From: Minisyncoccia bacterium
GTDB lineage: Bacteria; Patescibacteriota; Minisyncoccia; Phycocordibacterales; GWA1-40-21
Direction: 5' to 3'
DNA: 64,000 nucleotides
NCBI GenBank assembly: GCA_049695975.1
Contig: JBAVTE010000009.1
Location: 4,459-68,458 of the forward strand
Below the pieces are notes generated by a model. It was not told the origin of the DNA. It saw only the letters and a list, made by a program, of their open reading frames with translations, and searched no databases. A program made the translations under genes and the position numbers. Shown in pieces: positions 14,853-59,759 of this stretch (positions are counted from its first letter, which is position 1; each line of letters opens with the position of its first letter).

Positions 14853-16037
14853 TTAAAAGCCTAAAACTCTAATTGTATCTCTTGTTATTTGTTCCATTTC
14901 ATCCGTTTTTAAAACCAATACAGAAACCTTAGAATCTATCGCTGAGATGTCTACATCTACTCCCTCGCTTTTATTATTTATTTCAATATTGATCTTAATT
15001 CCTAGGATTTCTAAATCTCTGCAAATCTTTTCCCTCATAACAAAAGATCTCTCCCCCACCGTTGCTGTAAAGACTATAGCATCAAGTCCTCCAAGTGCCA
15101 CAAAATACGAGCCGATACATTTTTGCAATCTATAAACATACATATCAAGTGCAAGCTTTGCTCGCAGGTCACTTTCTTTTTCAAGCCTAATCAAGTCTCT
15201 TACATCAGAACTTTTTCCACTCACCCCAAGAAGTCCACACTTTTTATTTAAATAATCCTTTAACTTTTTTCCTTTTATTCCCAATTTGTCCGAAACAAAT
15301 GCTACAGTTCCCGGGTCAATATCCCCCCCTCTTGTCGCCATCATTACACCTTCAAGAGGCGTAAAACCCATTGAGTTTTCAATACTTCTGCCGTTTTTTA
15401 TTGCAGTTACACTCACTCCGCTTCCTATGTGACATACGATTAATTTTGAAGGGATAGTCCTATTTTCTGTTTTCAATTTATTTAATATTGATTCTATAGA
15501 AATGCCATGATAACCATATTTTTTTATATGATATTTTTGTGTATCCTCAAAAGGCAAACCATAATAACTCGCTCTATCGGGAAGTGTGTTATGAAAATCA
15601 CTATCGGATACACCGACAATTGGAACATTTTTGAAAATTTTATTTAACCGCAAAATTTCATCATAAGTTGGCAAAAGATGAAGAGGTGCATCATCTAGAA
15701 TATTTTTTATTTCTTTTATATATTTTTTATCAATAATCTTATCATCCTGAAAATATTCTCCAGGTGCAACAATTCTTATCCCGATTCCCGATATCTCTTC
15801 TCTGCCGGAAATAATTCCAACTGTTTTAAAAAGAGATAATGCGTAATTTAATGAATCTTCAAATTCTTTTTCTGTAATACATTTGGTGTCTTTTTTATTA
15901 TCAATATAGAGAGTCCTCACATAATTACACCCTCTCTCTGGCTTTTCCAAATGCAAAAAAGCCAAACTTTTTTCTTTTGTATAAATGGCGTATTTTTCCG
16001 ACGCACTACCTCTATTTACAATTAAATATTTTTTCAT
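14853..16037 (-). CDS. ackA: acetate kinase
   Basis: N-terminal LIVNRGSASEKYAIY (acetate/propionate kinase signature 1); VCHIGSGVSVTAIKNGRSIENSMGFTPLEGVMMATRGGDIDPG (signature 2). Confidence 0.9.
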   Translation of the reverse strand: MKKYLIVNRGSASEKYAIYTKEKSLAFLHLEKPERGCNYVRTLYIDNKKDTKCITEKEFEDSLNYALSLFKTVGIISGREEISGIGIRIVAPGEYFQDDKIIDKKYIKEIKNILDDAPLHLLPTYDEILRLNKIFKNVPIVGVSDSDFHNTLPDRASYYGLPFEDTQKYHIKKYGYHGISIESILNKLKTENRTIPSKLIVCHIGSGVSVTAIKNGRSIENSMGFTPLEGVMMATRGGDIDPGTVAFVSDKLGIKGKKLKDYLNKKCGLLGVSGKSSDVRDLIRLEKESDLRAKLALDMYVYRLQKCIGSYFVALGGLDAIVFTATVGERSFVMREKICRDLEILGIKINIEINNKSEGVDVDISAIDSKVSVLVLKTDEMEQITRDTIRVLGF

Positions 16038-16044
16038 TAATAAG

Positions 16045-18501
16045 CTATTTTTTAAATGAAATAAATTTCCAATTTAAAATCTCTTCCGGATCATCACCGA
16101 CGCGCATAATATAGTCTTTGTGATCCTTTATTTTATTCTGATAAATCAAAACAAGTCTGTTGGCTTTTTCTTCATCAATCACTCCGTTCTTCGCTACTTT
16201 TTCTATTGCCTCAATAAACAGATTATAACGATCGGTTTTGTTCCTAATATGTAAGTCGAGAGGTGTAGTGGTAGATCCGCTTTCCATGTAACCATGAACA
16301 GAGATTCTACCTAAAGCATTTACAAAACGAAAGAGGGTTTGCTCCAAAGTGTCTGGGTAACCATGAAAATTAAAAATCACTGGTTTATCCTTGGTAAAAT
16401 ATCTTTCAAAATCAATCTCGGAAATTTTATCATCGTGACCAACAGTGTTCGGTGAAAGTTCTACAACATTTACAAAACGTACTTTGACTTCTGGTGCTTC
16501 TTTTTTCAGAAGGTCGATCGCTGCGAGAGCTTCTTTGACCAAATACTGACCACAACCACCGAAGACTATGTCTGGGTTTTCATCACTTGCAAAGTCCCAA
16601 ATAGAAATACCATCTTCTACTTCCCTTTTGGCTTCTTCAAAAGACAGCCAAATAGGTTCAAGGGTTTTCTCAACTATCATTACGTTGATTTCATTTTTTG
16701 AAGCAAGACATTTTTCGGTGATGAGAACAGCTTCGTTTGCATCTGCGGGAAAATAAATATTAATAAAATCGTGATTTTTATTTAGAAGTTCATCCATGAA
16801 GCTTGGGTTCTGATGAGAAAAACCATTGTGCTCCTGACGCCAGCCAGTAGAAGTCAAAATATAATTAAAAGACGGTACATCTCCACGCCACTCTGTCTTT
16901 CGTGCAATCTTCAAAAACTTGCTATACTGATCTGCCATACTAGACACAATAGGAATAAAAGCTTCATAAGATGCAAAAATAGAAAATCGTCCTGTCAAAA
17001 CATATCCTTGGGCCAAACCTTGAAGAGAGTTTTCAGATAACATTTCTATGATTCGTCCATCTCGTGACATATCTTTATCCCATTCTTCAAGCTTACCTGC
17101 AAAAGCTCTTTTGGTTTCTTTGAACATATCTTGCAAACGGTTTGAGTAAGTTTCGTCCGGAGAAAAAAGTCGGAAATTTCTTTGCTCTTTATTTAATTTT
17201 ACAACTTCAGCTAGATACTCGCCATTTTTTGCCATAGCTCCTACTGAGACAGTACCGGCATTTTCTATTTTTGTTTCAAAATTAGCATTATCAGGCAAAA
17301 TCAAATCTCGATTATGATCACCCTTCTTGATACCAAAAGCAATTTGATTGTCACCCATTCGCAAACCTTCTTTTGGCACATTATCTAAAATATCTTTTGC
17401 AAAACCATTTTGTGAATCAAAAAGTTCCTCAAACTTATATGAATGTAACCATTTCTCTACTAATTTTAATTGATACTTGTCTGTTTTGGTCTCCTTGCCT
17501 ACAACTTGATGTGAAAGACAATTTCCTTCGATTTTATCTCCACTCCCCTCAATTTTATAACCTTTTAGATATTTGATACCAGTCCAGCCCTTTGGCGTCT
17601 TCATAATAATCATCGGGAATCTAAAATAATCTTCGAGCTTTCTTTCTGGATTTTCTCTCGCTTCTTTTTGAATAGCTCTGATTCTAGCATAAGCTTCATC
17701 AAGGGCTTTGACCATTTTCTCATAGACTTTATCGTTGTGTCCTTCTACGATTATGGGTTCATAACCATAACCCTTAAATAAAGATTTTAAATCAGAGTTA
17801 CTCATTCGGCCAAAAATTGTAGGACCGGAAATTTTGTAACCATTTAAATGTAAAATCGGTAAAACTGCACCGTTTTTTACGGGATCAATAAATTTGGACA
17901 AATGCCATGATGTAGCGAGTGCGGCGGTCTCGGCTTCCCCATCGCCAACAAGACATGTAACGATCAAATCTGGATTATCTAGCACTGCACCATAAGAAGT
18001 AGAAAGTGAATATCCGAGTTCTCCGCCCTCAAGAATCACGCCCGGGGTCATGGGGCTTGAGTGACTAGGAAAACCATATGGCCAGCTGAAATTTTTGGTA
18101 ATATATGAAATACCATCTTCATTTAACTTTGCATCTATATAATATTTACCAAGAGTCCCCTCGAGAAAAACATTGGATTGAATAGCAGGAAAACCATGTC
18201 CAGGACCAAGGACAAACATCATATTTGCTTCTGTTTTTATAATTAAATTGTTTAGACACGCATAAACAAAATTTATTCCAGGACAAGTTCCCCAATGGCC
18301 GAGTAGACGAGACTTTATATCATCAAAAACGAGTTTGTCTTTCAATAAAAAATTATTTTGTAAATAAATTTGACCTACTGATAAATAATTGGCTGCACGA
18401 ACATATTTTTTTATTCTTTCAATTTCTTTTTGCATGCCTGCCATTATATCAAAGATTAAGAAAAAAATGAAAAGCCAACTACAATACCTTTTATTTTTCA
18501 A
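16045..18501 (-). CDS. xfp: xylulose-5-phosphate/fructose-6-phosphate phosphoketolase
   Basis: GHWGTCPGINFVYACLN and EGGELGYSLSTSYGAVLDNPDLIVTCLVGDGEAET phosphoketolase/TPP signatures; ORF-track start is TTG, the likely start is the ATG ~57 nt downstream (MAGMQKEIERIKKYVRAANYLSVGQIYL). Confidence 0.9.
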   Translation of the reverse strand: MKNKRYCSWLFIFFLIFDIMAGMQKEIERIKKYVRAANYLSVGQIYLQNNFLLKDKLVFDDIKSRLLGHWGTCPGINFVYACLNNLIIKTEANMMFVLGPGHGFPAIQSNVFLEGTLGKYYIDAKLNEDGISYITKNFSWPYGFPSHSSPMTPGVILEGGELGYSLSTSYGAVLDNPDLIVTCLVGDGEAETAALATSWHLSKFIDPVKNGAVLPILHLNGYKISGPTIFGRMSNSDLKSLFKGYGYEPIIVEGHNDKVYEKMVKALDEAYARIRAIQKEARENPERKLEDYFRFPMIIMKTPKGWTGIKYLKGYKIEGSGDKIEGNCLSHQVVGKETKTDKYQLKLVEKWLHSYKFEELFDSQNGFAKDILDNVPKEGLRMGDNQIAFGIKKGDHNRDLILPDNANFETKIENAGTVSVGAMAKNGEYLAEVVKLNKEQRNFRLFSPDETYSNRLQDMFKETKRAFAGKLEEWDKDMSRDGRIIEMLSENSLQGLAQGYVLTGRFSIFASYEAFIPIVSSMADQYSKFLKIARKTEWRGDVPSFNYILTSTGWRQEHNGFSHQNPSFMDELLNKNHDFINIYFPADANEAVLITEKCLASKNEINVMIVEKTLEPIWLSFEEAKREVEDGISIWDFASDENPDIVFGGCGQYLVKEALAAIDLLKKEAPEVKVRFVNVVELSPNTVGHDDKISEIDFERYFTKDKPVIFNFHGYPDTLEQTLFRFVNALGRISVHGYMESGSTTTPLDLHIRNKTDRYNLFIEAIEKVAKNGVIDEEKANRLVLIYQNKIKDHKDYIMRVGDDPEEILNWKFISFKK

Positions 18502-18520
18502 AAGTGTTATTATATTAGAT

Positions 18521-19099
18521 ATGACATTAAAAAGATTAGACGCAAAAAATTTACAAAAGAATACAGAAAATGTGACAGGACTTCACCCCGAGATAGTTGG
18601 CGATTTCAATGACATAAAAGGAGATGTTTCCAAAATAAGAGGAAATATAACTATTCACAAAATAAAAGGTGATGTTTCAAATATAGCTGGCGACATTAGC
18701 GGGCTTTCTGGCGATGTTAGCAATATTCTTGGTGATGTAACAAATATAAAAGGTGATATGACAAACCTTAGCGGAGATATGAGTGACCTTTCTGCAGACT
18801 TTAGTTCTACTATAGGTGATGTCTCAAATATCAGTGGTTCTGTCAAAAATATCAGAGGCAATGTCAGTAAAATTGAAGGAGATGTATCAAATATTCTCGG
18901 AAATGTTTCAAACATCAAAGGTGATGTTACAAACCTTGTAGGCAATGTAACAAACATAAAAGGTTATGTCAGTAATATCAGAGGCAATGTTACAAATGTT
19001 TCTGGAGATGTCACAAACATCTACGGCGATGTCACTGGGGTTGAAGGAGACACGACAGGTATGTCTGGCAATATTGAGGAGTTATTAAAAATTAAGTAA
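18521..19099 (+). CDS. heptapeptide-repeat protein (~20 tandem G-[DN]-V-[ST]-N-[IL]-x heptads), no signal peptide, unknown function
   Basis: Start taken at the ATG at 18521 (the longer TTG ORF overlaps xfp); protein is GDVSNIA GDISGLS GDVSNIL GDVTNIK GDMTNLS ... GDVTNIY GDVTGVE; hydrophobics at heptad positions a/d. Confidence 0.6.
   Translation: MTLKRLDAKNLQKNTENVTGLHPEIVGDFNDIKGDVSKIRGNITIHKIKGDVSNIAGDISGLSGDVSNILGDVTNIKGDMTNLSGDMSDLSADFSSTIGDVSNISGSVKNIRGNVSKIEGDVSNILGNVSNIKGDVTNLVGNVTNIKGYVSNIRGNVTNVSGDVTNIYGDVTGVEGDTTGMSGNIEELLKIK
18599..19061 (+). repeat. in-frame 21-bp tandem repeat array (~20 degenerate copies) encoding the heptad repeats
   Basis: Units such as ggtgatgtttcaaatatagct / ggcgatgttagcaatattctt / ggtgatgtaacaaatataaaa; copies differ mainly at synonymous positions. 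Confidence 0.7.
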
Positions 19100-19234
19100 A
19101 AGATAGTGTGTTAAGAAAAGTCTTTAATATTTTAACTAAGCCTACTGATCCACTTTAGAAACATGAGTTTCTAAAATTAATTGTTAACCTATTCCTTTTT
19201 AATTAAAAATATGCTTTAATAGAAACTCGGATAT

Positions 19235-19251
19235 GCGCTTCGGCGCTTTTT
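19235..19251 (+). terminator. small UUCG-tetraloop hairpin plus T-run (possible terminator of the repeat-protein gene)
   Basis: GCGC-TTCG-GCGC followed by TTTTT; stem is only 4 bp, so this is weak. Confidence 0.3.
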
Positions 19252-19256
19252 ATTAT

Positions 19257-19305: not shown

Positions 19306-21108
19306 ATGGAAATCAGAAACATAGCAATTATCGCCCACGTGGACCACGGAAAGACCACACTTACAGATGCTCTCATGAAGCAAAGTGGTGTTAATATGGA
19401 AGGCCTTACCATGGACTCAAACTCTCTAGAACAAGAGCGTGGTATTACTATTTATGCCAAAAATACTTCTGTTTTCTACAAAGGCACAAAAATAAATATT
19501 GTAGATACTCCCGGGCACGCTGACTTCGGCTCTGAAGTTGAACGAGTTATCAAGTCAATTGACTCTGTCATTCTCGTCGTGGACGCTCAAGAAGGTCCAA
19601 TGCCTCAAACAAAATTTGTATTAAAAAAATCATTAGAAATTGGGCTTAAGCCTATCGTTGTAATAAATAAAATAGACAAGTCAGCAGCAAGACCCGAAGA
19701 AGCTCACGAAAAAGTGTTGGAGCTCTTTATGGAACTCGGGGCAAACAACGAACAGCTCGATTTTCAAATTATTTATGCTATCGGAAGAAATGGTGTTGCA
19801 ATGAAAAATCTTGGTGATGAACAAAAAGATCTTACTCCCCTTCTCGATTGTATTTTAGAAAATGTTAAACCAGCAGAAAATAAAGAGGATGAACCTCTAA
19901 AAGCTCAGATTTTTAATCTTGCTTACGACAACTTCCTCGGACGACTTGCTATTGCAAGAATTTACGAAGGTAAAATAAAAGATGGTCAAACTATTTTTAC
20001 AAAAACACCAGACGGAAAAACCAAAAAATTTCGCATTACCAAACTTTACACTTTCAATGGAATGACCAAAGAAGCAGTAGAAGAAGCACCTTGTGGAGAT
20101 ATTGTAATGGTTGCAGGAATTTCAGATGCATTTATCGGAGAAACAATTGTAGAAAATAATGAGCAAATTCCCCTCCCTTCTATTCCAATAGATGAGCCAA
20201 CTATTTCTCTAAACTTTTTAGTCAATGATTCCCCTTTTGCAGGAAGAGAAGGCAAATTTGTAACAGGACGACAAATACGAGAAAGACTAGAAAAAGAACT
20301 CGAAGTAAATGTTGGACTAAAAATCGATTTCAGTTCCGAACCACTTTTGGTCTACGGACGAGGTGAGCTTCACATTGCTATCCTTCTTGAAAATATGAGA
20401 AGAGAAGGTTATGAACTTCAAGTCTCTCAACCACAAGCAATCTCAAAAGAAGAAAATGGTGTAAAAACAGAACCATTTGAAGAAGTGACGATAGATGTAC
20501 CTGAAGAATATTCTGGAAATGTGATAGATAAAATAGGTAGGAGAAAAGGAATAATGACCGAAATGAAACAAAAAGAAGGACACTGCCGAATAATATTTGA
20601 TGTACCTACTAGAGGTCTTCTCGGATACCGCGGACAGTTTGTAGTAGATACTAGAGGTGAAGGAATTCTCTGTTCTAGATTTGTCGGATTTAAACCTTAT
20701 GCTGGAGAAATACGAAAACAAGAATATGGTTCTATGACTTCCATGGCTTCTGGAAAAGCTTTGGCATTTTCACTATGGAATTTACAAGAAAGAGGTTCTA
20801 TTTACATTGACCCAGCAACTGAGGTCTATGAGGGAATGGTCATTGGAAATGTTACAAAAGGTGATGAAATGGATGTAAATCCAACAAAAGGAAAGGCTCT
20901 TACAAATATGAGAAAAACTAGTTCAGACGAAGCGATATATCTTACTCCACCACTTCGTCTTGATATTGAAAGAGGCCTTGAAATTATGAGACACGATGAA
21001 CTTTTAGAAATTACACCAAAAAATGTAAGACTTAGAAAAAAGAACCTTACCGATGTTGAGAGAAAAAGAAATGAAAGAAGTCAGACAAAGAAGTTGAATG
21101 ATTTATAA
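19306..21108 (+). CDS. typA: translational GTPase TypA/BipA with K/R-rich C-terminal tail
   Basis: [23 protein letters not shown] (G1), [15 protein letters not shown] (G3), NKIDK (G4); five-domain EF-G-like layout; the upstream TTG (19270) ORF-track start lies inside the leader hairpin and is rejected. Confidence 0.9.
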
Positions 21109-46237: not shown

Positions 46238-48442
46238 CTATTTGAAAGGATTTATTCCTTTATAAATAGAGTTTATCATCCCTTCTATTTTTTCCGTCAT
46301 ACTTGGATTTATTTTTTCTGCTCTTTTCAACAAATCAACTGTAGTAGAAATAATCCCTTTATCATAATACCCTTTTGCAACCGCCATATATGATGAAGAA
46401 ATTCTTGAGTCGCTTGTAGTTGCATTTCCCCAAAGTGCATCAAAAGTTTTTTGATCTTGAGCAAAGATAAGAGATACACCATAAATTATTTTTGTTTCAG
46501 GATAGTTTTGTTCTAGATCATATGACTCTTTTGCCTCTTTCAATACATTATCTATTTGACCCAAGTTAAGATATGCGTTTACAAGTTGAGTTCTAAAGGC
46601 CTGCTTATTTGGAGAAAGTTCTTTTGCTTTTAAGAGATATGTTAATGCTTGATTAAAATCTCCTAAATTAACTAGAAAAATTCCAAAAAATTCTTGATAT
46701 CTTGCATCGTTTGGATAAGTAATAACCTGTGTTTTTATTTGAGTATAAGCTAAGTCAACAAATTTAGTTTTTAAATCCTGACTTGCTACTGTACCTCGAT
46801 ATACAGAAGGAGCAATTTCGAGCAATCTTTCTCTAACTTCTGCTTTTCCTAAAAATCCATTGGAAACAGCTTCTTTGAAGAAATTCAAACTAAGATCAGG
46901 ATATTTACTCTGTGTTTGTACAGCTAAAATCAAATTATGATTTGTATGAATTGGTTTATAATTTACAAAATATAAACTAGCAAAAAGTGCAATAACGACG
47001 ACAGGCGCTATCATATAAGCTACAGCCTCATTATTCTTGCCTGTCTCATCCATCCACTCAGATATTTTTTGCATGTAAGTCCCTTGCTCTCCCTTCTCCC
47101 TTCTAGAATAAATATGAATGATTGCAAAAACTGTAAAGAACAAGAACAAACTTATATTATTATCGAACACAAATAAACTCTGGAAAAAATATCCCGCGAG
47201 TAGTCCTGTAATAACTGACTTCTCTATGATAGACAAAATGCTTGCCTTTCTCCATAGCTCATATAGACATGCGAGATAAAGTCCAAGATAAAATAATAAC
47301 CCCAGAAACCCTCCGGCAACAAGCATATCGAGAGGCATATTGTGCGCCCTATCAAACCATTGCTCTTGATAATACATTTTTGGATCATAAAATTTGTTGA
47401 AAGCATAATTAAAATTTTCTTGACCCCATCCTAAAATCGGTCTCTCCATTGCACCTTTTATAGCCATTGGCCAAACGAGCTGTCTCGCTTGACCGTTTAG
47501 ATCAGTCAAAGAAACAGACAATAATCTCTGCAAGGAACCGTGACTTTTTATATAACTAGAATCCAAAATATTTTGAGTAATTTTACCAAGTCCAGTCTGC
47601 TGATAAGGAGCTGTGTCTCTAAAAATAAATGCTGAATAAGTAAAACCGAAAATAAACATCACAGCAAATATAACAACAGAAGTTTTCCTCACAAAAACAT
47701 TTTTCTTCTCGAAAATTGTAATAAGGAGAGCAGAGATCAATAGGCCAACACCCAATCCCAAAATAACCCCTCTTGAAGTGTTATAAACAAGATATGTAAA
47801 CATACCCCCTAAACATAAGTAAATATAAAATAACCAATTCGAAAAAAGTTTCTTAAGGACGATTCCCTGTTCAGTCAAGCATTTTACCAAGACATCTCTG
47901 TACAAAAGAACCAAAATAAAGAAGAAGTTGAAAAGAAAATAAACGGAGAGATAAATAGGGTTACCAAGTGGGCCGGATACTCGATAAATACCATTCGTGA
48001 TATCTACGAATGACATAATACTCATAATGAAGCTCAAGAAAACCGAGGTTCTCAAAAACCAGGACAAAAAATCATTCTTGATGACAGAAGCAAAAACAAC
48101 AAAATACATTAAAAGATGTATAAGTGTCACCCATCCGTCCATTCGTTCAAAGTTACTCCACAGAGATTTTGCAGGAGCCACACCAAATATATCTGCAAGG
48201 AACATTACTGAAACAAAAAGAAACGCAATCAAAGCCACCCAGGAAAACTTTAGTCTGCTTTCCTTATCCTTGAAAATAAGGATAAGCCAGAGAGCAAAAA
48301 CAATTTCTATAATAATGCGAAGTGTAAATGCCTTACCGACTATGTATGGAAAATACATTCCGTTTGTCACGATAAATGGTACAAGAAGCAATGCAAAAAG
48401 ACCTGTAATAACCGTTACTTTCAATAATTGTTTGATAGTCAT
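46238..48442 (-). CDS. polytopic membrane protein with O-antigen-ligase/Wzy_C domain and C-terminal periplasmic TPR repeats (candidate glycan polymerase or O-oligosaccharyltransferase)
   Basis: >10 predicted TM helices; Wzy_C-type motif RAHNMPLDMLVAGGFLGLLFY after a large external loop; C-terminal ~250 aa TPR-like (LTYLLKAKELSPNKQAFRTQLVNAYLNLGQ). Confidence 0.6.
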   Translation of the reverse strand: MTIKQLLKVTVITGLFALLLVPFIVTNGMYFPYIVGKAFTLRIIIEIVFALWLILIFKDKESRLKFSWVALIAFLFVSVMFLADIFGVAPAKSLWSNFERMDGWVTLIHLLMYFVVFASVIKNDFLSWFLRTSVFLSFIMSIMSFVDITNGIYRVSGPLGNPIYLSVYFLFNFFFILVLLYRDVLVKCLTEQGIVLKKLFSNWLFYIYLCLGGMFTYLVYNTSRGVILGLGVGLLISALLITIFEKKNVFVRKTSVVIFAVMFIFGFTYSAFIFRDTAPYQQTGLGKITQNILDSSYIKSHGSLQRLLSVSLTDLNGQARQLVWPMAIKGAMERPILGWGQENFNYAFNKFYDPKMYYQEQWFDRAHNMPLDMLVAGGFLGLLFYLGLYLACLYELWRKASILSIIEKSVITGLLAGYFFQSLFVFDNNISLFLFFTVFAIIHIYSRREKGEQGTYMQKISEWMDETGKNNEAVAYMIAPVVVIALFASLYFVNYKPIHTNHNLILAVQTQSKYPDLSLNFFKEAVSNGFLGKAEVRERLLEIAPSVYRGTVASQDLKTKFVDLAYTQIKTQVITYPNDARYQEFFGIFLVNLGDFNQALTYLLKAKELSPNKQAFRTQLVNAYLNLGQIDNVLKEAKESYDLEQNYPETKIIYGVSLIFAQDQKTFDALWGNATTSDSRISSSYMAVAKGYYDKGIISTTVDLLKRAEKINPSMTEKIEGMINSIYKGINPFK

Positions 48443-48773
48443 ATTTTAAAAAACTTGTCCCGTAATAAGTTATATCTTACTACTGGTATTATTAGTAATA
48501 TCAATAATCTATAATAAAAAACTTTCAAAAGCTAGTGCAAGTGGCATTATAACACAGAAAATTAATGACAGAAAAGATTAATTTTAAAAACGTGGGTGTG
48601 AGTTCCATCTGCAATATGTCGAAAAGTCGCATAGACAAAGGATGGCGGAACAATGCAAGTATGGAGTGGTGGAAAACAAACAAGATCTCCATTATACATA
48701 GATGAATGTTTAGATCGAAAAACAAGTAAAAAAAGTGACGTTTCAATATAAAGGTGATAAAATATCCTAAATT

Positions 48774-50120
48774 ATGGAAATCGACAATAAAGAGCAGATC
48801 AATGCAACTGTCCTTGACTATTTTACCAACTGGCAAACTTTTTGGTTTTATATAAAAGAAAAGATACAACACCCCGGTGTGCAAAAACATGGAAAAAATA
48901 TGGGGTGGATGTTCACGACAAAGATTACAAGTATGGCGATTTCATTTATCGCAACAGCGTATATAGCAAGGCATCTTGGTCCGATGAATTATGGAGAACT
49001 CAGCTATGCTATGAGCTTTGTGGGACTTTTTGGTTTTATAGCAGTTCTCGGTATAGATCAAATACTATATAGAGATCTTATAAAATACCCTGAAAAAAGA
49101 AACGAATACATGGGGACAGCACTAACTGTGAGAATAATAGCTTCCATAATTGCAGTAATGGTTTGTACATTAGGTGCTTTTATTTTTTCACCAAGAGATG
49201 TTTCTTTATTCTTAATTTTTATTATTAGTTTAACTTTTATATTTAGCTCTTTTCAATTATTGAGTTATGAATTTCAAGCAGAAATAAAATCAAAATATCC
49301 TTCTATCATTTCTTTGGTAATTGTATTGATCTTAAATATATTAAAAATAATAGTAATTTTTAATAGTAAAGGTGTTATATATCTTGCTGGAATCGTCCTG
49401 CTTGAACCCATACTTTATTCTATCGGCTTCTTATATTTTAGAATAAAAAAGTTTGGAACAATTAAATATTGGAGATTTGATAAAAATATTGCGATTTCAA
49501 TTTTAAAAGATTCATCCCCTCTTATTTTTTCATCAGTCTTCCTTGCAATATATGCCCGAATAGATCAAGTTATGATAAAAAATATGATGGATGCGGGTTC
49601 CGTCGGACTCTACAGTTCTGCAGTTACAGTCTCAGAAGTTTGGTATTTTATTCCAAATATAATTGTCTCAGCTCTATTTCCTGCAATCATAAATGCAAAA
49701 TTAACTTCAGACGGACTCTATAAAAATAGATTGAAAAAATTAACCTCACTTTTGTTTGTGTTTTCTTTAATAGCTTCAATTTTTACATCAATTTTTGCCC
49801 CAATAATAATAAAGATACTTTATGGATCTGCTTTCATAGGCGGTATAACAGTCCTACAGATATATGTGTGGTCTCTCGCCGGAACTTCATTAAGTAACTT
49901 AATAATGAATTATTTAGTAGCCCAAAATTACAGAAGGATTTCACTTTTAATAAATATTTTGCCGATGATTATAAATGTTATTTTAAATATAATCTGGATA
50001 CCAAAATACGGTATAATTGGAGCTGCATTAGCGACACTCATTTCATATTCTATTGGTCCTTTTGTCTTATTACTTTTTAAAAAAACAAGAAGTGAAATAT
50101 TAGAAATAATCAAAGCATAA
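48774..50120 (+). CDS. Wzx-like polysaccharide flippase (MOP/PST superfamily)
   Basis: 448 aa, ~12-14 TM helices, PST-family layout; divergently transcribed from the Wzy_C gene. Confidence 0.6.
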   Translation: MEIDNKEQINATVLDYFTNWQTFWFYIKEKIQHPGVQKHGKNMGWMFTTKITSMAISFIATAYIARHLGPMNYGELSYAMSFVGLFGFIAVLGIDQILYRDLIKYPEKRNEYMGTALTVRIIASIIAVMVCTLGAFIFSPRDVSLFLIFIISLTFIFSSFQLLSYEFQAEIKSKYPSIISLVIVLILNILKIIVIFNSKGVIYLAGIVLLEPILYSIGFLYFRIKKFGTIKYWRFDKNIAISILKDSSPLIFSSVFLAIYARIDQVMIKNMMDAGSVGLYSSAVTVSEVWYFIPNIIVSALFPAIINAKLTSDGLYKNRLKKLTSLLFVFSLIASIFTSIFAPIIIKILYGSAFIGGITVLQIYVWSLAGTSLSNLIMNYLVAQNYRRISLLINILPMIINVILNIIWIPKYGIIGAALATLISYSIGPFVLLLFKKTRSEILEIIKA

Positions 50121-50121
50121 T

Positions 50122-51042
50122 ATGTTTAAAATAAAAGAAAGGACAGATAATTTACGTTTTAAAATATACTATAATTCCTTGTTCAAAATAAAAGTCTGGA
50201 CAACAAGAAAAGTGGTGAAATTGTTTAAATTAGGAAGACATACTAGTTATCCATTTATAACTGGGGATAGTTTCCGAGCTTTGGCCCAGCACATTTTTGA
50301 TGAATCATCTGATATTGATTGTCCGTCAGTTATGCATAGTGATATTGTATTTGTACGGACAGATTTTTTGCATACTTTTTTTAAAAAAATACATATAAAA
50401 ATTATTAATCCTTATATTTTAATATCCCATAATGCTGACAATAACATAGACTCTCAATATGAAAAATATATCGATGATAAAATTATCCACTGGTTTGCAC
50501 AGAATCTTTTAATAGACAATAAAAAAATAACTCCTATACCGATAGGGATAACCCTTAGATTTTATGACAAAAAAAATACAACCGCAGAATTAATTAAAAA
50601 ATATCGAAATAAAATAGGTCGTATTTTAAAAATATTTTTTGGATTTTATGGAAATACCAACAAAAAGAGGTTGGGAATCGTAAATGACCTTAGGAAATGT
50701 TCTGTGTGTGTTGAATGTAAGGATTTTTTGGAAAAAGATAAGTACTATGATCAAGTTTCAAATTATGTTTTCAACGCATCACCTATCGGAAATGGGATAG
50801 ACTGTATTCGCACATGGGAATCATTATATTTAGGAACTATTCCCGTGGTTGAAAGAAGTGTGTCAACTGGATATTGGAAAAATATCGGTATTCCCCTACT
50901 TCTCGTTGATTCTTGGAAAGATTTAGAGAATGTCAGAGAAGATTGGCTTAAAAAAGAATATGAAGATATAAAAAATAAAATTGGTTCGGAAGCAATTTAT
51001 ATGGATTATTGGATAAAAGAAGTCATAAAATATAAAAATTAA
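50122..51042 (+). CDS. hypothetical protein in the glycan cluster (possible glycosyltransferase of unassigned family)
   Basis: No canonical motif recognised; tight operonic packing (2-nt gap to the upstream gene, 1-nt gap to the downstream gene). Confidence 0.3.
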   Translation: MFKIKERTDNLRFKIYYNSLFKIKVWTTRKVVKLFKLGRHTSYPFITGDSFRALAQHIFDESSDIDCPSVMHSDIVFVRTDFLHTFFKKIHIKIINPYILISHNADNNIDSQYEKYIDDKIIHWFAQNLLIDNKKITPIPIGITLRFYDKKNTTAELIKKYRNKIGRILKIFFGFYGNTNKKRLGIVNDLRKCSVCVECKDFLEKDKYYDQVSNYVFNASPIGNGIDCIRTWESLYLGTIPVVERSVSTGYWKNIGIPLLLVDSWKDLENVREDWLKKEYEDIKNKIGSEAIYMDYWIKEVIKYKN

Positions 51043-51043
51043 A

Positions 51044-51928
51044 ATGAATTATTCAATAGGAGTCGTCACATATCACGCCAGATTTGAAAAATATTTCATT
51101 CCTCTCATCAAGAAATTGACTGCTATATTTCCTGATAAGGAAATCATATGCGTAATCAATGGACATCCAGATAGAACATTGCAAATCAATTATTTAAATA
51201 ATATTACTGCTTTTTTGTCGAAATTTTCGAATGTTCGTTATTTGACTTATGATACAAATCAATCTTTATCTAAATGCTGGAATCAAATAATAATACTTTC
51301 TCAAACAGAGAAAGTTATTATTATAAATGACGACACTCAAGTAACAGACCTCTTCCGCCAAGAATTTGAAACAAAAGTTTTAGACATACCATTTTCAATT
51401 ATGAATGCCAGCTGGAGTCATTTTCTTACTTCCAAAGAAATTGTTAAAAAAGTTGGATGGTTTGATGAACGTCTCTTGGGAGTTGGGTACGAGGACGCAG
51501 ATTATGGACTAAGAATGGCAATGCTAGGCATCCCTATGACAAATACTATTTGTTTGGGACTCAATAATTATGTAGCTGGCCAAGAAAATCCTGGATGGAA
51601 AAATATTTCCCAAAAAATTAATGCATCAAAATATACATTAGTAAATTTTGAATTTTTTAAAACAAAATGGGTTACTATGGATATAAACCCAGAAATCAAA
51701 CCAGAAAATTTCAAACATAAATTACAATGGAATGATACTCTGTGTTTATTCTCTCCAAAGACAAATGAACCTACCCCTATATTTTACGATTTCAGTTGTC
51801 TTGATTATAAAATAAAAACAAGCTTTAGTTCTCTGCCTTATATTGAAAATAATTTCAAAATTACAATGCAAAAAGTATTCTTTGCATTCAAACAATTACT
51901 TAAGAAAATATATAGAAAAATGTTATAG
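51044..51928 (+). CDS. GT2/GT7-like glycosyltransferase with galactosyltransferase-type GxGxEDxDxxxR motif
   Basis: VIIINDDTQV (DxD-like) and LGVGYEDADYGLRM, which resembles the beta-1,4-galactosyltransferase C-terminal motif (WGWGGEDDD). Confidence 0.45.
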   Translation: MNYSIGVVTYHARFEKYFIPLIKKLTAIFPDKEIICVINGHPDRTLQINYLNNITAFLSKFSNVRYLTYDTNQSLSKCWNQIIILSQTEKVIIINDDTQVTDLFRQEFETKVLDIPFSIMNASWSHFLTSKEIVKKVGWFDERLLGVGYEDADYGLRMAMLGIPMTNTICLGLNNYVAGQENPGWKNISQKINASKYTLVNFEFFKTKWVTMDINPEIKPENFKHKLQWNDTLCLFSPKTNEPTPIFYDFSCLDYKIKTSFSSLPYIENNFKITMQKVFFAFKQLLKKIYRKML

Positions 51929-51934
51929 CACCAG

Positions 51935-52942
51935 CTATTTTTGAATCCAAAAACTTGGTAATTTTTTTGTAATTTCAATATTTTCAAATTCTTTACTGGA
52001 TTGAACACCCACCTTCCTGGCCCAATCAAACATTTTCTTGAGACCTTCGGATAAAAGAATCCTCTTCGGCCTGTTTGATAAAAGTCTATTTAATTTGTCG
52101 TGAGTACTATATGCATGCTTGACTTCATTTCTAGTTTCAAGATGTTTTCTTTGGATTGGTTTACCATTAGCCTTTTCAAGTTCATCTGTCATTTGATTAA
52201 TTGTGCAAGGAACATCTCCTCCAACATTTATAATTTGACTATAAAACGATTTATTCTCGACAGAGTGAGCAATGATTGGGGCAACATCATCAATATATGA
52301 AAATGCTCTGGATTGTTCCCCGTCCCCATAGATAGTTACTGGCTCATCTTTCATTATTTTGTTCATAAAAATACCGATAACATTTCTATATTTATCACCA
52401 ATATTTTGTCTTGGTCCGTAAACATTATGAGGTCTAAATATGACATAATCCATTCCAAACATCTCATTGGCCGCTTTTAAATCAAGTTCAATTGCATACT
52501 TGGCCACACCATACGGATCACAAGGCGAAGGAATCATATCTTCTGAAAATGGAGGTTTGCCATGACCATATACGGCCATTGAAGAAGTAAACACAAAACA
52601 TTTTACTCCATATTTAATAGATGCATTAATCAGATTGACACTGCCCATAAGATTATTTTCATAATTAAACTTACGAATAAAATGACTCAAACCTTCTGCG
52701 GCATAAGCAGCTAAATGATATACATATGAAAATTTGTGTTCAGCAAAAAGTTTTTCTACAAGAGTGGCGTCAGTAATTGACCCATTAATAAATAAAATAC
52801 CTGGCGAGATATTGCTTTCAAAACCTCCCGATAAATCGTCTAAGACAACGACAGAATGACCCATTTTCAAAAGTTCATCCGCAACATGAGAACCAATAAA
52901 ACCTGCACCACCAGTCACTAATATTTTTTCTGATTTATTCAT
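51935..52942 (-). CDS. NAD-dependent nucleotide-sugar epimerase/dehydratase (extended SDR; GalE/UXS-like)
   Basis: ILVTGGAGFIGSHVADELL Rossmann motif, catalytic YxxxK (YGVAKY), YGDGEQSRAF motif; start taken at the ATG at 52942. Confidence 0.8.
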   Translation of the reverse strand: MNKSEKILVTGGAGFIGSHVADELLKMGHSVVVLDDLSGGFESNISPGILFINGSITDATLVEKLFAEHKFSYVYHLAAYAAEGLSHFIRKFNYENNLMGSVNLINASIKYGVKCFVFTSSMAVYGHGKPPFSEDMIPSPCDPYGVAKYAIELDLKAANEMFGMDYVIFRPHNVYGPRQNIGDKYRNVIGIFMNKIMKDEPVTIYGDGEQSRAFSYIDDVAPIIAHSVENKSFYSQIINVGGDVPCTINQMTDELEKANGKPIQRKHLETRNEVKHAYSTHDKLNRLLSNRPKRILLSEGLKKMFDWARKVGVQSSKEFENIEITKKLPSFWIQK

Positions 52943-53048
52943 AACATTAAATATTATACACATTCATAATTATTTTGCACCATATTTATATTATGTTGAA
53001 AAATATACAAAAATTGATATAATATCAAGTAATTAATATAATAAAATT

Positions 53049-53921
53049 ATGAAATACTTAGTATTGGGATCGGCTGGTCAGATAGGTTCGACACTTGTCA
53101 AAAAAATTAAAGAAAATAAAAAAGATGAGGTTTTTGAATTCGATATAGAAAATAATCCGTCTCAGGACCTTAGAATTTATAATAACAAGCTACTAGATAA
53201 AATAATAAAAAAATCGGATTTTATCTTCTTTTTGGCTTTTGATGTTGGAGGATCAAGATATTTAAAAACATACCAAGATACTTATGATTTTGTATCAAAC
53301 AACATTAAAATTGTAGACAGGACTTTTGATGCATTGAAAAAACACAATAAACCATTTATCTTTGCCTCAAGTCAAATGGCAAATATGTCTTATTCAAGTT
53401 ACGGTCTCCTCAAATCAGTCGGAGAAAAAAATACTGAGATTTTAGGTGGACTTGTGGTTAAATTTTGGAATGTTTATGGCTTAGAGCATGATAAAAATAA
53501 ATTTCATGTTATTACTGACCTTATTATCAGAGCATCAACAACTGGTAAAATAAATCTTTTAACTGACGGTACTGAGGAAAGACAACTCCTTTTTACTGAT
53601 GATTGTGCCGAGTGTTTAATAGAATTATCAAAAAAATACAAGAATATACCAAGAAATAAACAACTGCATATCACAAATTTCAAATGGCACACCATTCTCG
53701 ATGTAGCAAACATTATTTCAAAACATTTTCCTGGTTCTAAAATAAAACCAAGTAAACAAATAGATACAGTTCAAAAAAACAAAAAAAATGAACCGGACTC
53801 ATATATTCTTAGCTATTGGAAACCAAAAACTAAACTTGAGGATGGTATTGCTTATATAATAAAAGAGATGAAAGCACATCCTGAAAAATATCCGGGTATG
53901 TCCTCAAAAAAAATCCTATAA
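53049..53921 (+). CDS. NAD(P)-binding epimerase/reductase-like protein (divergent extended SDR)
   Basis: MKYLVLGSAGQIGSTLVKKI Rossmann-type N-terminus; SSQMANMSYSSYGLLK region suggestive of a catalytic S...YxxxK triad; low similarity beyond the fold. Confidence 0.5.
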   Translation: MKYLVLGSAGQIGSTLVKKIKENKKDEVFEFDIENNPSQDLRIYNNKLLDKIIKKSDFIFFLAFDVGGSRYLKTYQDTYDFVSNNIKIVDRTFDALKKHNKPFIFASSQMANMSYSSYGLLKSVGEKNTEILGGLVVKFWNVYGLEHDKNKFHVITDLIIRASTTGKINLLTDGTEERQLLFTDDCAECLIELSKKYKNIPRNKQLHITNFKWHTILDVANIISKHFPGSKIKPSKQIDTVQKNKKNEPDSYILSYWKPKTKLEDGIAYIIKEMKAHPEKYPGMSSKKIL

Positions 53922-53945
53922 TACAGTGTTATTTTTATAATTAAT

Positions 53946-54896
53946 ATGAAAACAATCGTACTCATACCCATTAAAAATGAGGAATGGATTTTGGAGCAGA
54001 CTCTAAATAATATTTCACCGTATGTGGATGAAGTTATAATTGCAGATCAAAAATCAACAGACAAAAGTTTAGAAATCTGTAAGAAATTTTCTAATGTAAA
54101 AGTGATTGATAACCCTTATGAAGGACACAGCAATAAAGTCCGATGGTTACTTCTCGAGGAAGCCAGGAAAATCGGCAAAAATAATTTGATTGTCTGTATT
54201 GATGCCGATGAGATGATTTCACCAATGGGTTTAGAAGAAATTAAAAAACTTATCTCAGAAGGTAAGGCCACTAAGGGAGATGTATTTAAATTAAAATGGA
54301 TACAATTATGGAAAAATACTAAGGAGTATAGAGATGATGGGGTTTGGAAGGATAATTATAAAGATGTTGCTTTTATTGATAACGAAGAAATCAATGAATA
54401 CAAAAGAGATTTTGTTGTAAACGACCACACTTCTAGAGTCCCAGATACAAACATAAATAAAGAAATATCAATTTCCTATCCCCTACTTCATTTTCACTTT
54501 GTGGCTTGGAAAAGAACTGAAATGAAACAGGCTTGGTATAGGTGTTCTGAACTTATTGCTGGTTTAAGAAATGCAAAAAGAATTAATAACACTTATAGAG
54601 TAACCCTCGAACCTAAAAATATTAAACTTCTTTCTATACAAAAAGAATGGGTAGATGGATTGACTCTGACACAAAACATGGAAAAAGCTTCGAGTGATTG
54701 GCATCTGAAAGAAATTTTAGGGTTTTTCGATAAATATGGAATTAAATTTTTTGAGCAATTACAGATTTGGAATATTGACGAATTGCATAATGAATTTGTA
54801 AAAAAAGTTGGACGAGAACCAATAAGTAGAGTTTATCCCAGTTGGTTAGTTGCCTTGAACGAAATTAAAAACAAGATTAGAAATTTTCGCCCATAA
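53946..54896 (+). CDS. glycosyltransferase, GT2-like (GT-A fold)
   Basis: IVLIPIKNEEWILEQTLNNI ... EVIIADQKSTDKS ... VCIDADE (DxD) layout. Confidence 0.55.
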   Translation: MKTIVLIPIKNEEWILEQTLNNISPYVDEVIIADQKSTDKSLEICKKFSNVKVIDNPYEGHSNKVRWLLLEEARKIGKNNLIVCIDADEMISPMGLEEIKKLISEGKATKGDVFKLKWIQLWKNTKEYRDDGVWKDNYKDVAFIDNEEINEYKRDFVVNDHTSRVPDTNINKEISISYPLLHFHFVAWKRTEMKQAWYRCSELIAGLRNAKRINNTYRVTLEPKNIKLLSIQKEWVDGLTLTQNMEKASSDWHLKEILGFFDKYGIKFFEQLQIWNIDELHNEFVKKVGREPISRVYPSWLVALNEIKNKIRNFRP

Positions 54897-54898
54897 AT

Positions 54899-59748: not shown

Positions 59749-59759
59749 TAATTGATAAA

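What the first reader, a model, noticed from the sequence alone, without database searches (positions are those of the whole stretch)
18521..19099. Protein made of ~20 tandem heptapeptide repeats G-[DN]-V-[ST]-N-[IL]-x (21-bp DNA repeats), no signal peptide
A ~190-aa ORF consists almost entirely of a degenerate heptad with hydrophobics at a/d (V, I/L), Asn at c and Gly-Asp at f/g (e.g. GDVSNIL GDVTNIK GDMTNLS ... GNVTNIK GYVSNIR). The DNA copies are synonymously diverged, so the repeat is maintained by selection on the protein rather than by recent slippage. The periodicity suggests an unusual polar coiled coil or fibre (Gly in every heptad is atypical for canonical coiled coils). I do not recognise it as a described repeat family; Hep_Hag heptads are Ala-rich and differ. 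It lies between xfp and typA, with no secretion signal.
Basis: seen in the sequence. Interest (0 to 1): 0.6.

Follow-up and report, generated by a model that had tools for sequence, protein, structure and literature searches.

The report
Undescribed heptapeptide-repeat protein, conserved in Patescibacteria
This is a real, strongly conserved 192-residue protein of a candidate-phyla-radiation bacterium, built almost entirely from 7-residue G-D-V-S-N-I-x units; it belongs to a large family, shared with uncultivated phages, that none of the protein-family libraries searched describes, and it probably folds as a beta-solenoid rather than a coiled coil.

Summary
Window 18521-19099 (+) encodes a 192-aa protein with 21 heptads, one conserved 9-residue unit and two capping units. 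It has no signal peptide and lies between xfp and typA in a Minisyncoccia (Patescibacteria) MAG. The gene is real: dN/dS is 0.04 against a relative, and 11 orthologues at 49-90% identity align without internal gaps, with the same number of units.

It belongs to a large family (about 1,250 50%-identity clusters at E<=1e-10, though that count also includes ordinary heptad coiled coils). The family has no specific model in Pfam, NCBIfam, PHROGs or PADLOC and no solved relative. Many members are small capped proteins in the replication/recombination regions of uncultivated phages.

The coiled-coil reading is less likely than a beta-solenoid:
- Gly at unit position 1 is nearly invariant, far more conserved than the hydrophobic positions.
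- Family arrays are 21% Gly and poor in Ala, Glu, Lys and Gln.
- Pro and 8-residue units occur in homologues.
- Two AlphaFold runs gave 5-residue strands with G-D turns and no helix in the repeats, but at low confidence (pLDDT 60-66).

A trimeric coiled coil is not excluded, because the stalk-like segment of the Hia adhesin (PDB 3emo) carries G-x-V-x-N-L-x heptads. Function is unknown. My guess is a rigid binding platform or mimic, as in pentapeptide-repeat proteins.

The parts
18521..19099 (+). Complete CDS of the repeat protein (192 aa plus stop)
   Evidence: ORF list and sequence. An identical gene call exists on a Logan contig. dN/dS is 0.041 against the L006 orthologue. Eleven orthologues align without internal gaps.
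18521..18577 (+). N-terminal non-repeat segment (residues 1-19), with a predicted short helix at residues 8-15 and the conserved N14-T15
   Evidence: DSSP on both AlphaFold2 models shows helix at residues 8-15. N14 is invariant and T15 nearly so among the orthologues.
18578..18598 (+). N-terminal cap unit GLHPEIV. It is part of the motif NT-x-x-V-T-G-L-H-x-x-I-W-G-D-F, shared with distant relatives
   Evidence: T19, G20, L21, H22, G27, D28 and F29 are invariant among the orthologues. The same motif occurs in P0006, P0068, P0025 and P0027. It was the search pattern that recovered the orthologues.
18599..18640 (+). Heptads 1-2 (GDFNDIK, GDVSKIR)
   Evidence: Register.
18641..18667 (+). Conserved 9-residue unit GNITIHKIK (a heptad with two extra residues; the H-K-I is conserved)
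   Evidence: It sits at the same place in all 11 orthologues. K47 is invariant; H46 and I48 are nearly so.
18668..19066 (+). 19 uninterrupted heptads (residues 50-182). The unit at residue 92 starts with Ala instead of Gly
   Evidence: Register and codons. Unit-by-unit conservation. TRF periods of 21 and 42 nt.
19067..19096 (+). C-terminal unit plus short predicted helix, GNIEELLKIK (G-x-[IV]-x-[ED]-L-[LIV] in the orthologues)
   Evidence: AlphaFold2 shows helix at residues 185-189. Similar ends occur in P0068, P0131 and P0144.
18436..18520 (.). 85-nt divergent intergenic region between xfp and the repeat gene. It presumably holds both promoters; no Shine-Dalgarno motif is obvious
   Evidence: Gene ends. 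One sigma-70-like match lies at 18456-18485, but the number of such matches is no higher than in shuffled sequence.

Best explanation
The ORF is a genuine, expressed, cytoplasmic protein that is a conserved chromosomal gene of a clade of Patescibacteria (CPR bacteria). It belongs to a large heptapeptide-repeat family with unit G-[DN]-[VCI]-[ST]-x-[IL]-x. That family has no specific model in any of the family libraries searched, and it is shared with uncultivated phages and some archaeal and other contigs.

Most likely each unit forms one short beta-strand (V-S-x-I-x) followed by a tight G-D turn. The roughly 24 units would then wind into a capped beta-solenoid rod, with two to four units per coil. 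The closest analogies are the two-unit coil of the grass antifreeze beta-roll and the quadrilateral pentapeptide-repeat helix. The N-terminal helix with the 'TGLH' unit and the C-terminal short helix would act as end caps.

On this reading the small [ST] and large [IL] residues face inward, as positions i-2 and i do in pentapeptide repeats, whose consensus [STAV][DN][LF][STR]G is contained in S-N-I-x-G. The variable positions 5 and 7 would form the exposed surface.

Inferred function, at low confidence: a rigid, mildly acidic binding platform or molecular mimic that acts on other macromolecules. This is analogous to pentapeptide-repeat proteins that bind DNA gyrase; the phage copies sit among replication and recombination genes.

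What is shown: the gene is real, it is conserved, the unit number is fixed, the family is large, and it is absent from the libraries searched. What is inferred: the fold. What is a guess: the function.
For: The gene is real and constrained.
- dN/dS is 0.041 (dS 1.46; 84 of 108 differences at third codon positions), comparable to typA at 0.023.
- Nine full-length orthologues in Patescibacteria genomes, the L006 relative and the window protein (188-193 aa) align without internal gaps. The same units, including the 9-residue one, are present in all.

The family is large.
- 40 relatives were found by a word-indexed search.
- A profile search of 1.84 billion cluster representatives found 5,106 hits at E<=1e-3, 1,251 at E<=1e-10 and 102 at E<=1e-30.
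- 63 stretches of IMG/VR viral contigs carry an exact double-heptad pattern.
- There is no specific Pfam, NCBIfam, PHROGs or PADLOC family and no solved relative.

Evidence for a beta fold over an alpha fold.
- Gly at position 1 is invariant in 20 of 21 heptad columns of the orthologues (0.04 bits). The hydrophobic positions 3 and 6 have 0.75 and 1.05 bits.
- Family arrays are 20.8% Gly, and position 5 is Gly in 36% of 1,074 heptads. Ala is 2%, Glu 2.3%, Lys 2.4% and Gln 0.8%.
- 8-residue units (3%) and 6-residue units (1%) occur. In the 8-residue units the extra residue lies between positions 4 and 6, and Pro is frequent at their positions 4-5.
- Pro occurs at unit position 3 in orthologues L015 and L017 and repeatedly in P0006, which shares the N-terminal cap motif.
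- Many members have defined N- and C-terminal cap motifs.
- Two AlphaFold2 runs (39 and 98 sequences) give 5-residue strands, 2-residue G-D gaps and no helix in the repeats.
- The nearest PDB folds to both models are pentapeptide-repeat proteins (AlbG, MfpA, the SV2 luminal domain, Qnr) and tailspike beta-helices.
- There is precedent for roughly 7-residue units giving a 14-15-residue coil: LpAFP (PMC5744647).

Evidence from genomic context.
- Five independent phage contexts are replication, recombination or accessory regions. Neighbours include SSB, RecT, DNA polymerase A, HNH/NUMOD4 endonucleases, a SNF2 helicase and a DNA methyltransferase. None is in a virion module.
- The orthologues are acidic (pI 4.6-6.3), and the viral members have a median pI of 4.8.
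Against: - Both AlphaFold2 models have low confidence (mean pLDDT 59.5 and 65.6; pTM 0.33-0.36). No structural match is significant (E>=0.1, TM<=0.3).
- The 3/4 spacing of V and I is the classic a/d pattern of an alpha-helical coiled coil. It fits less simply onto an alternating in/out beta-strand.
- The same heptad occurs in the stalk-like regions of trimeric autotransporter adhesins (P0053: GNVTTLQ after DAVNGSQLYATN necks). It also occurs in the solved Hia chain 3emo (GVTNLAGQVNNLEGKVNKV).
- The best profile hits in the libraries are coiled-coil proteins: phrog_19577 at E=3e-15, P22-type tail needles and fibritin.
- No consistent super-period of 2, 3 or 4 units could be shown.
- Nothing tests the proposed function. 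Net charge is only mildly negative, and some relatives are basic.
- There is no conserved operon partner.
Confidence: 0.5

Rival explanations
1. It is a trimeric alpha-helical coiled-coil rod, possibly with one beta-layer at the 9-residue unit. V would be at position a, I/L at d, D at g, K/R at e and Gly at f. This is the same heptad used in the stalks of trimeric autotransporter adhesins and in some phage fibres, but here in a soluble cytoplasmic protein of fixed length that acts as a spacer or ruler.
For: - The hydrophobic spacing is 3/4, with beta-branched V and I as expected for trimer cores.
- D at position 2 and K/R at position 7 are placed for g-e' salt bridges.
- Near-identical heptads occur in the adhesin P0053 after neck motifs, and in the solved Hia chain 3emo. 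I recall that segment as helical, but this was not checked here.
- phiNIT1 orf378 and phrog_19577 carry S-D-V-S-T-L-K heptads.
- Pfam, PDB and PHROGs hits are all to coiled-coil proteins.
- From my own knowledge (Hartmann et al. 2016, eLife), a two-residue insertion into heptads can be absorbed in trimeric coiled coils as a beta-layer.
Against: - Gly is nearly invariant at a position that should be the least constrained in a coiled coil.
- Many relatives have two Gly per heptad, and the arrays are poor in Ala, Glu, Lys and Gln.
- Pro occurs at the putative 'a' position in two orthologues, and in several units of P0006 and P0003.
- One-residue insertions recur at a fixed place in the unit.
- AlphaFold2 predicted no helix in the repeats in either run.
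- Phage members are not in virion modules.
Confidence: 0.27
2. It is an obligate trimer in which three chains intertwine into a triple-stranded beta-helix, as in the T4 gp5 needle with its V-x-G-x-x-x-x-x repeats. Each heptad would give one strand on one face, and the Gly would make the kink to the next face.
For: - The I-x-G motif recurs at a fixed short period, with Gly invariant.
- Low monomer AlphaFold2 confidence with extended strands is what an intertwined oligomer would give.
- The resemblance to the gp5 repeat rests on my own knowledge and was not tested here.
Against: - No sequence or fold match to any triple beta-helix protein was found.
- The small phage members have their own N- and C-terminal caps and lie outside tail modules.
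- The period is 7 rather than 8.
Confidence: 0.08
3. It is not a functional folded protein. It would be a frame artefact, a decaying low-complexity ORF, or an intrinsically disordered polypeptide without a defined structure.
For: - AlphaFold2 confidence is low.
- No Shine-Dalgarno motif or promoter rises above chance.
- A 100-aa antisense ORF overlaps the array.
Against: - dN/dS is 0.04, and substitutions are concentrated at third positions of this frame.
- Orthologues at about 50% identity align without internal gaps, with unit-specific conserved residues.
- The start codon is conserved, with stop codons just upstream.
Confidence: 0.03

Closest known systems
Pentapeptide-repeat proteins (MfpA, Qnr, AlbG; Pfam Pentapeptide families)
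   Same: - Both are tandem short peptide units with a small residue, D/N, a large aliphatic residue, x and G. S-N-I-x-G of the heptad fits the consensus [STAV][DN][LF][STR]G (consensus from my own knowledge).
- These proteins are the nearest folds to both AlphaFold2 models, though not significantly.
- They are soluble, cytoplasmic and acidic, with no catalytic domain.
   Different: - The period is 7, not 5, because of two extra residues (D-V).
- There is no Pentapeptide HMM hit.
- The coil geometry is unknown.
- No link to gyrase or to a resistance context was found.
Grass antifreeze beta-roll (LpAFP/LpIBP; Pfam PF21300 LbR_Ice_bind)
   Same: - It is built from roughly 7-residue units ending in Gly (NXVXG/NXVXXG), two per 14-15-residue coil (PMC5744647).
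- An aliphatic residue lies two positions before the Gly, as does I/L here.
   Different: - The window protein does not match PF21300. Only atypical low-complexity relatives do (P0085, P0089, P0076).
- Position 3 is hydrophobic (V/C) here and polar there.
- The plant protein is secreted; this one has no signal peptide.
- No ice-related context is evident.
Coiled-coil stalk heptads of trimeric autotransporter adhesins (Hia 3emo; YadA_stalk-containing proteins such as P0053)
   Same: The heptad G-[DNQK]-V-[TSN]-[NT]-[LI]-x is nearly identical.
   Different: - The window protein has no signal peptide, head or neck motif (DAVNxxQL) or membrane anchor.
- Gly is invariant here.
- Pro and 8-residue units occur in homologues.
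- The organism is a Patescibacteria bacterium, and the protein appears cytoplasmic.
phrog_19577 / Bacillus phage phiNIT1 orf378 ('minor head protein' in the baseplate module)
   Same: It is the best library hit (E=3e-15). Its heptads S-D-V-S-T-L-K have the same D-V-S-x-L-K core.
   Different: - It has S/T where this family has an invariant Gly.
- It is a 378-aa virion protein with a C-terminal globular domain.
- It sits in a structural gene module.
Hep_Hag / YadA-head left-handed parallel beta-roll
   Same: It has a 7/14-residue periodicity and a beta-roll architecture, and Gly in each unit.
   Different: It is Ala- and Gly-rich (N-S-V-A-I-G), with hydrophobic residues two positions apart. It gives no HMM hit and is extracellular and trimeric.

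Membership tests
Canonical alpha-helical coiled coil | Heptad pattern with hydrophobic residues at positions a and d | tested here: met
   V at unit position 3 and I/L at position 6 give 3/4 spacing.
Canonical alpha-helical coiled coil | Helix-compatible composition with exposed b, c and f positions free to vary; essentially no Pro or periodic Gly | tested here: not met
   - Gly at 'f' is invariant in 20 of 21 columns.
- Arrays are 20.8% Gly, with Ala, Glu, Lys and Gln each at 2.4% or less.
- Pro occurs inside the arrays of orthologues and homologues.
Canonical alpha-helical coiled coil | Predicted or observed helical secondary structure | tested here: not met
   There is no helix in the repeats in either AlphaFold2 model. 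Both models have low confidence.
Trimeric autotransporter adhesin (stalk) | Signal peptide, head/neck motifs (DAVNxxQL, YadA_stalk PF05662) and a C-terminal YadA anchor | tested here: not met
   No such Pfam hits. The N-terminus is hydrophilic, and the protein is only 192 aa with no anchor.
Hep_Hag / YadA head repeats | Match to the Hep_Hag HMM; Ala/Gly-rich N-S-V-A-I-G units | tested here: not met
   Hep_Hag is absent from the Pfam list at E<=10, of which the best 25 of 31 families were shown. The consensus differs by eye.
Pentapeptide repeat (PF00805 and relatives) | Tandem 5-residue units A(D/N)LXX; HMM match | tested here: not met
   The period is 7 and there is no Pentapeptide hit. Only the sub-motif S-N-I-x-G resembles the consensus.
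LbR_Ice_bind (PF21300) | HMM match to the XXNXVXG beta-roll repeats | tested here: not met
   It is not among the window protein's hits. It is matched only by P0085, P0089 and P0076.
Baculo_PEP_C / DUF1664 / LPP / KOW2_Spt5 (Pfam hits just above cut-off) | True homology rather than periodic composition | tested here: inconclusive
   Four unrelated families each score 0.1-1.7 bits above their cut-offs at the same time. The same set recurs in all heptad-rich relatives. I read this as compositional or periodic matching.
The undescribed G-D-V-S-x-I-x heptapeptide-repeat family (defined here) | At least 5 tandem units G-[DN]-[VCIA]-[ST]-x-[IL]-x with Gly nearly invariant | tested here: met
   21 heptads in the window protein. 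Family logo from 1,074 heptads. Orthologue logo.
The undescribed G-D-V-S-x-I-x heptapeptide-repeat family (defined here) | N-terminal cap unit G-[LVI]-H-x-x-[IV]-x-G-D directly before the array | tested here: met
   GLHPEIVGD at residues 20-28. It is invariant in the orthologues and present in both sub-types.
The undescribed G-D-V-S-x-I-x heptapeptide-repeat family (defined here) | C-terminal cap G-[ND]-[VIL]-D-x-C-x-[IL]-T-x-E-[ED]-R-x-x-G-[IV]-x-I-x-x-L-[IV] (phage-type members) | tested here: not met
   The window protein ends G-N-I-E-E-L-L-K-I-K, a shorter variant shared with P0068, P0131 and P0144. P0025 and P0027 combine the window-type N-terminal cap with the phage-type C-terminal cap.

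The most novel reading that the evidence does not exclude
Heptapeptide-repeat proteins would be a third class of short-peptide beta-helix, alongside the pentapeptide and hexapeptide repeats, with a coil geometry not yet seen in any solved structure. They would be a conserved chromosomal component in a clade of Patescibacteria. They would also have been taken up, or donated, by uncultivated phages, which use variable-length copies early in infection as macromolecular mimics or decoys, for example of DNA or of the host protein's partner.
Probability: 0.3. Interest if true: 0.8.

Novelty: new variant of a known kind. Interest (0 to 1): 0.6.

Why it matters
Short-peptide solenoids such as the pentapeptide, hexapeptide and RTX repeats and the antifreeze rolls are textbook fold classes with defined functions. 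This family has thousands of members, and none of the libraries searched has a model specific to it. That makes it a sizeable gap in protein annotation and an obvious target for structure determination.

The length of the protein is strictly conserved in CPR bacteria, whose cell biology is almost unknown, which points to a defined structural role. Its recurrence next to replication and recombination genes of uncultivated phages suggests a possible new class of host-interference or mimicry proteins.

If it instead proves to be a Gly-containing coiled coil, it would still be an unusual, testable case for coiled-coil design rules.

Tried and rejected
- **Library searches.** Pfam, NCBIfam, PHROGs and PADLOC gave only periodic coiled-coil-type or chance hits.
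- **PDB sequence and profile searches.** These returned only coiled-coil proteins at weak E-values.
- **Foldseek.** Both models were searched against the PDB and the second also against BFVD; nothing was significant.
- **The search for related loci.** It worked with the narrow alignment A4.
- **Super-period test.** I looked for a solenoid super-period by comparing units at lags 1-7. There is a weak preference for lag 2 at positions 2 and 5, but the signal is dominated by between-protein composition and duplication history. I do not use it as evidence.
- **Chou-Fasman propensities.** They differ only slightly from those of real S/T-rich coiled coils.
- **DNA-mimic idea from charge.** The orthologues are acidic, but not extremely so, and some relatives are basic.
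- **Synteny.** typA is adjacent in only 4 of 12 loci, another clade has exoIII/xerC-like/rpsO/pnp neighbours, and there is no conserved partner.
- **Ice-binding reading.** Rejected: no PF21300 match, no signal peptide, and homologues in phages.
- **Longer TTG start (18389).** It would add a hydrophobic N-terminus. Rejected, because it overlaps xfp and the orthologues have stop codons just upstream of Met1.
- **Literature.** Three full-text searches for heptapeptide-repeat beta-helices or solenoids found no description.
- **GenBank phages.** Only one record in 50,697 holds a family member, the uncultured podovirus MW202691, annotated hypothetical.
Full report
**1. The observation**

Window 18521-19099 (+) is an ATG-initiated ORF of 192 codons. 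Gene calling on an independent Logan contig gives the same ends, with phosphoketolase (xfp, 16045-18435, minus strand) upstream and divergent, and typA (19306-21108) downstream. An exact match of the TypA protein to MGB8815752.1 places the window in a 'Minisyncoccia bacterium' MAG, that is Patescibacteria/CPR.

In register the protein reads as follows:
- residues 1-19: non-repeat;
- residues 20-26: a cap-like unit, GLHPEIV;
- two heptads;
- residues 41-49: a 9-residue unit, GNITIHKIK;
- nineteen further heptads, one of which begins with Ala;
- the end, GNIEELLKIK.

The DNA copies are old. Mean pairwise identity is 56%, and 39% at third codon positions. Identical residues use different codons in 58% of comparisons. 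The longest exact internal repeat is 17 nt. TRF sees only 64-76% matches. There is no other array of this kind in the window.

**2. The gene is real and its length is fixed**

A related genome (L006) has the orthologue at the same place. It is 89.5% identical in protein and has the same number of units. dS is 1.46 and dN/dS is 0.041, with 84 of 108 differences at third positions. For typA the ratio is 0.023.

A scan of one genome per GTDB species, using the N-terminal motif, recovered nine further full-length orthologues in Patescibacteria MAGs. They are 49-58% identical and 188-193 aa long.

All eleven proteins align without a single internal gap, and the 9-residue unit with its H-K-I sits at the same position in every one. 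Stop codons lie a few codons upstream of Met1 in the orthologues. This excludes the longer TTG start at 18389, which would have added a hydrophobic N-terminus.

The antisense 100-aa ORF (18655-18957) is a by-product of the codon pattern.

Neighbours are housekeeping genes with no conserved partner. typA is adjacent in four loci. In another clade the neighbours are an exoIII-like gene, a xerC/D-like gene, rpsO, a NYN-domain gene, pnp and cca.

**3. The family**

A word-indexed search found 40 unnamed metagenomic relatives. A profile search of 1.84 billion cluster representatives found 5,106 hits at E<=1e-3, 1,251 at E<=1e-10 and 102 at E<=1e-30. Part of the tail consists of ordinary heptad coiled coils and one trimeric autotransporter adhesin. 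The core is a coherent family.

A logo from 1,074 heptads in 98 proteins reads G | D60 N20 | V60 C11 | S56 T31 | G36 N20 | I48 L42 | variable.

Many members are 90-200 aa and share two cap motifs:
- an N-terminal cap, (Y/F)YYxDGxKIxG(V/I)HxxIxGD;
- a C-terminal cap, G(N/D)(V/I/L)DxCx(I/L)TxE(E/D)RxxG(I/V)xIxxL(I/V).

The window protein has a variant of each: the N-terminal cap NTExVTGLHPEIxGDF and a short C-terminal end G-N-I-E-E-L-L. P0025 and P0027 combine the window-type N-terminal cap with the phage-type C-terminal cap, which ties the sub-types together.

Contexts of the small members look like phage replication, recombination or accessory regions. Neighbours include SSB, RecT, DNA polymerase A, HNH/NUMOD4 endonucleases, a SNF2 helicase, a methyltransferase and an integrase. 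No capsid or tail genes are adjacent.

IMG/VR holds 63 stretches with an exact double-heptad pattern. Some contigs carry several loci, or tandem paralogues with 8-40 units. GenBank phages hold only one member, an uncultured podovirus whose units are G-D-C-S-S-L-x.

Pfam, NCBIfam, PHROGs and PADLOC have no model specific to the family. Pfam returns four unrelated coiled-coil-type families, each barely above its cut-off, which is what periodic composition produces. No solved structure is related by sequence. Three full-text searches found no description.

**4. Fold: beta-solenoid or coiled coil**

*For a coiled coil.* V and I/L are spaced 3/4. D at position 2 and K/R at position 7 could form g-e' pairs. 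Near-identical heptads occur in adhesin stalk-like segments, including the solved Hia chain 3emo (GVTNLAGQVNNLEGKVNKV), and in phiNIT1 orf378 (SDVSTLK).

*Against a coiled coil.*
- In the unbiased orthologue alignment, Gly at unit position 1 is invariant in 20 of 21 columns (0.04 bits). The two hydrophobic positions have 0.75 and 1.05 bits, and position 7 has 1.91 bits. Constraint like this is expected for a residue with a turn conformation, not for the most exposed position of a helix.
- Across the family, position 5 is also most often Gly. Arrays are 20.8% Gly, with Ala 2%, Glu 2.3%, Lys 2.4% and Gln 0.8%.
- Pro occurs at the would-be 'a' position in two orthologues. It occurs in five units of P0006, a relative that shares the N-terminal cap motif.
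- 8-residue units carry their extra residue at a fixed place, between positions 4 and 6, and are often Pro-containing.
- Defined caps at both ends are typical of solenoids.
- Two AlphaFold2 runs (39 and 98 sequences) place 5-residue strands on V-S-x-I-x and gaps on G-D, with no helix in the repeats. The nearest PDB folds are pentapeptide-repeat proteins and tailspike beta-helices.

*Caveats.* Confidence is low (pLDDT 59.5 and 65.6; pTM about 0.35) and no structural match is significant. The models therefore show only the kind of structure preferred.

*Relation to known solenoids.* The sub-motif [ST]-N-[IL]-x-G equals the pentapeptide-repeat consensus (my own knowledge). The grass antifreeze protein shows that roughly 7-residue units ending in Gly can build a 14-15-residue coil (PMC5744647). 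I could not establish how many units make a coil.

My estimates are: beta-solenoid about 0.6, trimeric alpha or alpha/beta coiled coil about 0.27, intertwined triple beta-helix about 0.08.

**5. Function**

Nothing tests function directly. What is known is this:
- The protein is cytoplasmic, with no signal peptide in any orthologue.
- It is mildly acidic: pI 4.6-6.3 in the orthologues and a median of 4.8 in viral members.
- Its length is strictly fixed in CPR genomes but variable in phages.
- The phage copies lie among DNA-metabolism genes.

The most economical mechanism is a rigid rod whose variable positions 5 and 7 form a binding surface. It would act as a scaffold or as a mimic or decoy, analogous to pentapeptide-repeat proteins. 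I hold this at about 0.25. A defined-length structural element of the cell is the main alternative.

**6. Novelty and verdict**

This is not a member of Hep_Hag, the adhesin stalks, the pentapeptide repeats or LbR_Ice_bind. The defining features of each were tested and not met.

It is best filed as a new variant of a known kind: a heptapeptide class of short-peptide repeat, probably a solenoid. The family has thousands of members and is unannotated in the libraries searched.

The coiled-coil suggestion is the less likely reading but remains open. Interest is 0.6.

Noticed in passing
window 18655-18957 (-): A 100-aa antisense ORF lies inside the repeat array. Similar antisense ORFs exist in four orthologous loci (L012, L014, L016, L019). 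The substitution pattern shows that selection acts on the + frame, so this ORF is a by-product of the codon periodicity.
   Followed up: partly
window 14853-18435 (-): An acetate kinase and phosphoketolase (ackA-xfp) pair lies directly upstream and divergent. This is a phosphoketolase route to acetate/ATP in a Patescibacteria genome.
   Followed up: no
window 19225-19256 (+): A short hairpin, GCGC-TTCG-GCGC, followed by TTTTTATTAT lies between the repeat gene and typA. It has only 4 stem pairs, below the terminator scan's threshold. It may be a weak terminator or a typA leader element.
   Followed up: no
window 48000-62000: G+C drops to 29-31%, against about 35% elsewhere, over a run of same-strand ORFs (48774-61384). 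This may be an acquired or surface-polysaccharide-type cluster. It was not examined.
   Followed up: no
L006 2213-2584 (+) and 3409-3705 (-): The closely related genome has two extra small genes (123 aa and 98 aa) flanking the repeat gene that are absent from the window. The xfp-typA interval is therefore a variable spot.
   Followed up: no
L005 4085-4486 (MW202691.1); also P0174, P0165, P0056, P0055: In some members unit position 3 is Cys in nearly every heptad (G-D-C-S-x-L-x), giving 12-21 Cys per protein. This might indicate a Cys ladder or metal binding in the core.
   Followed up: no
L026, L040, L044, L027, L084 (IMG/VR contigs): Several large viral contigs carry two or three adjacent paralogues of the repeat protein with different unit numbers. 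One 115-kb contig (IMGVR_UViG_3300049009_000811) has four separate loci.
   Followed up: partly
L007 (GCA_038881275.1, Candidatus Micrarchaeaceae contig): The archaeal homologue P0005 sits in a run of small, same-strand, unannotated genes that looks like a virus or provirus rather than core archaeal genome.
   Followed up: no
L021 (CAZHDZ010000042.1, labelled uncultured Gammaproteobacteria): P0006 is a Pro-rich, irregular relative with the same N-terminal TGLH-type motif. It lies among housekeeping genes of a MAG labelled as non-CPR. The taxonomic label and the spread of the family beyond CPR were not checked.
   Followed up: no
P0052 (1305 aa); P0063, P0066, P0067, P0070, P0075 (about 1200-1360 aa): Large proteins carry two or more arrays of the same heptad, separated by long non-repeat regions with no Pfam domain. 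Their origin and role are unknown.
   Followed up: no
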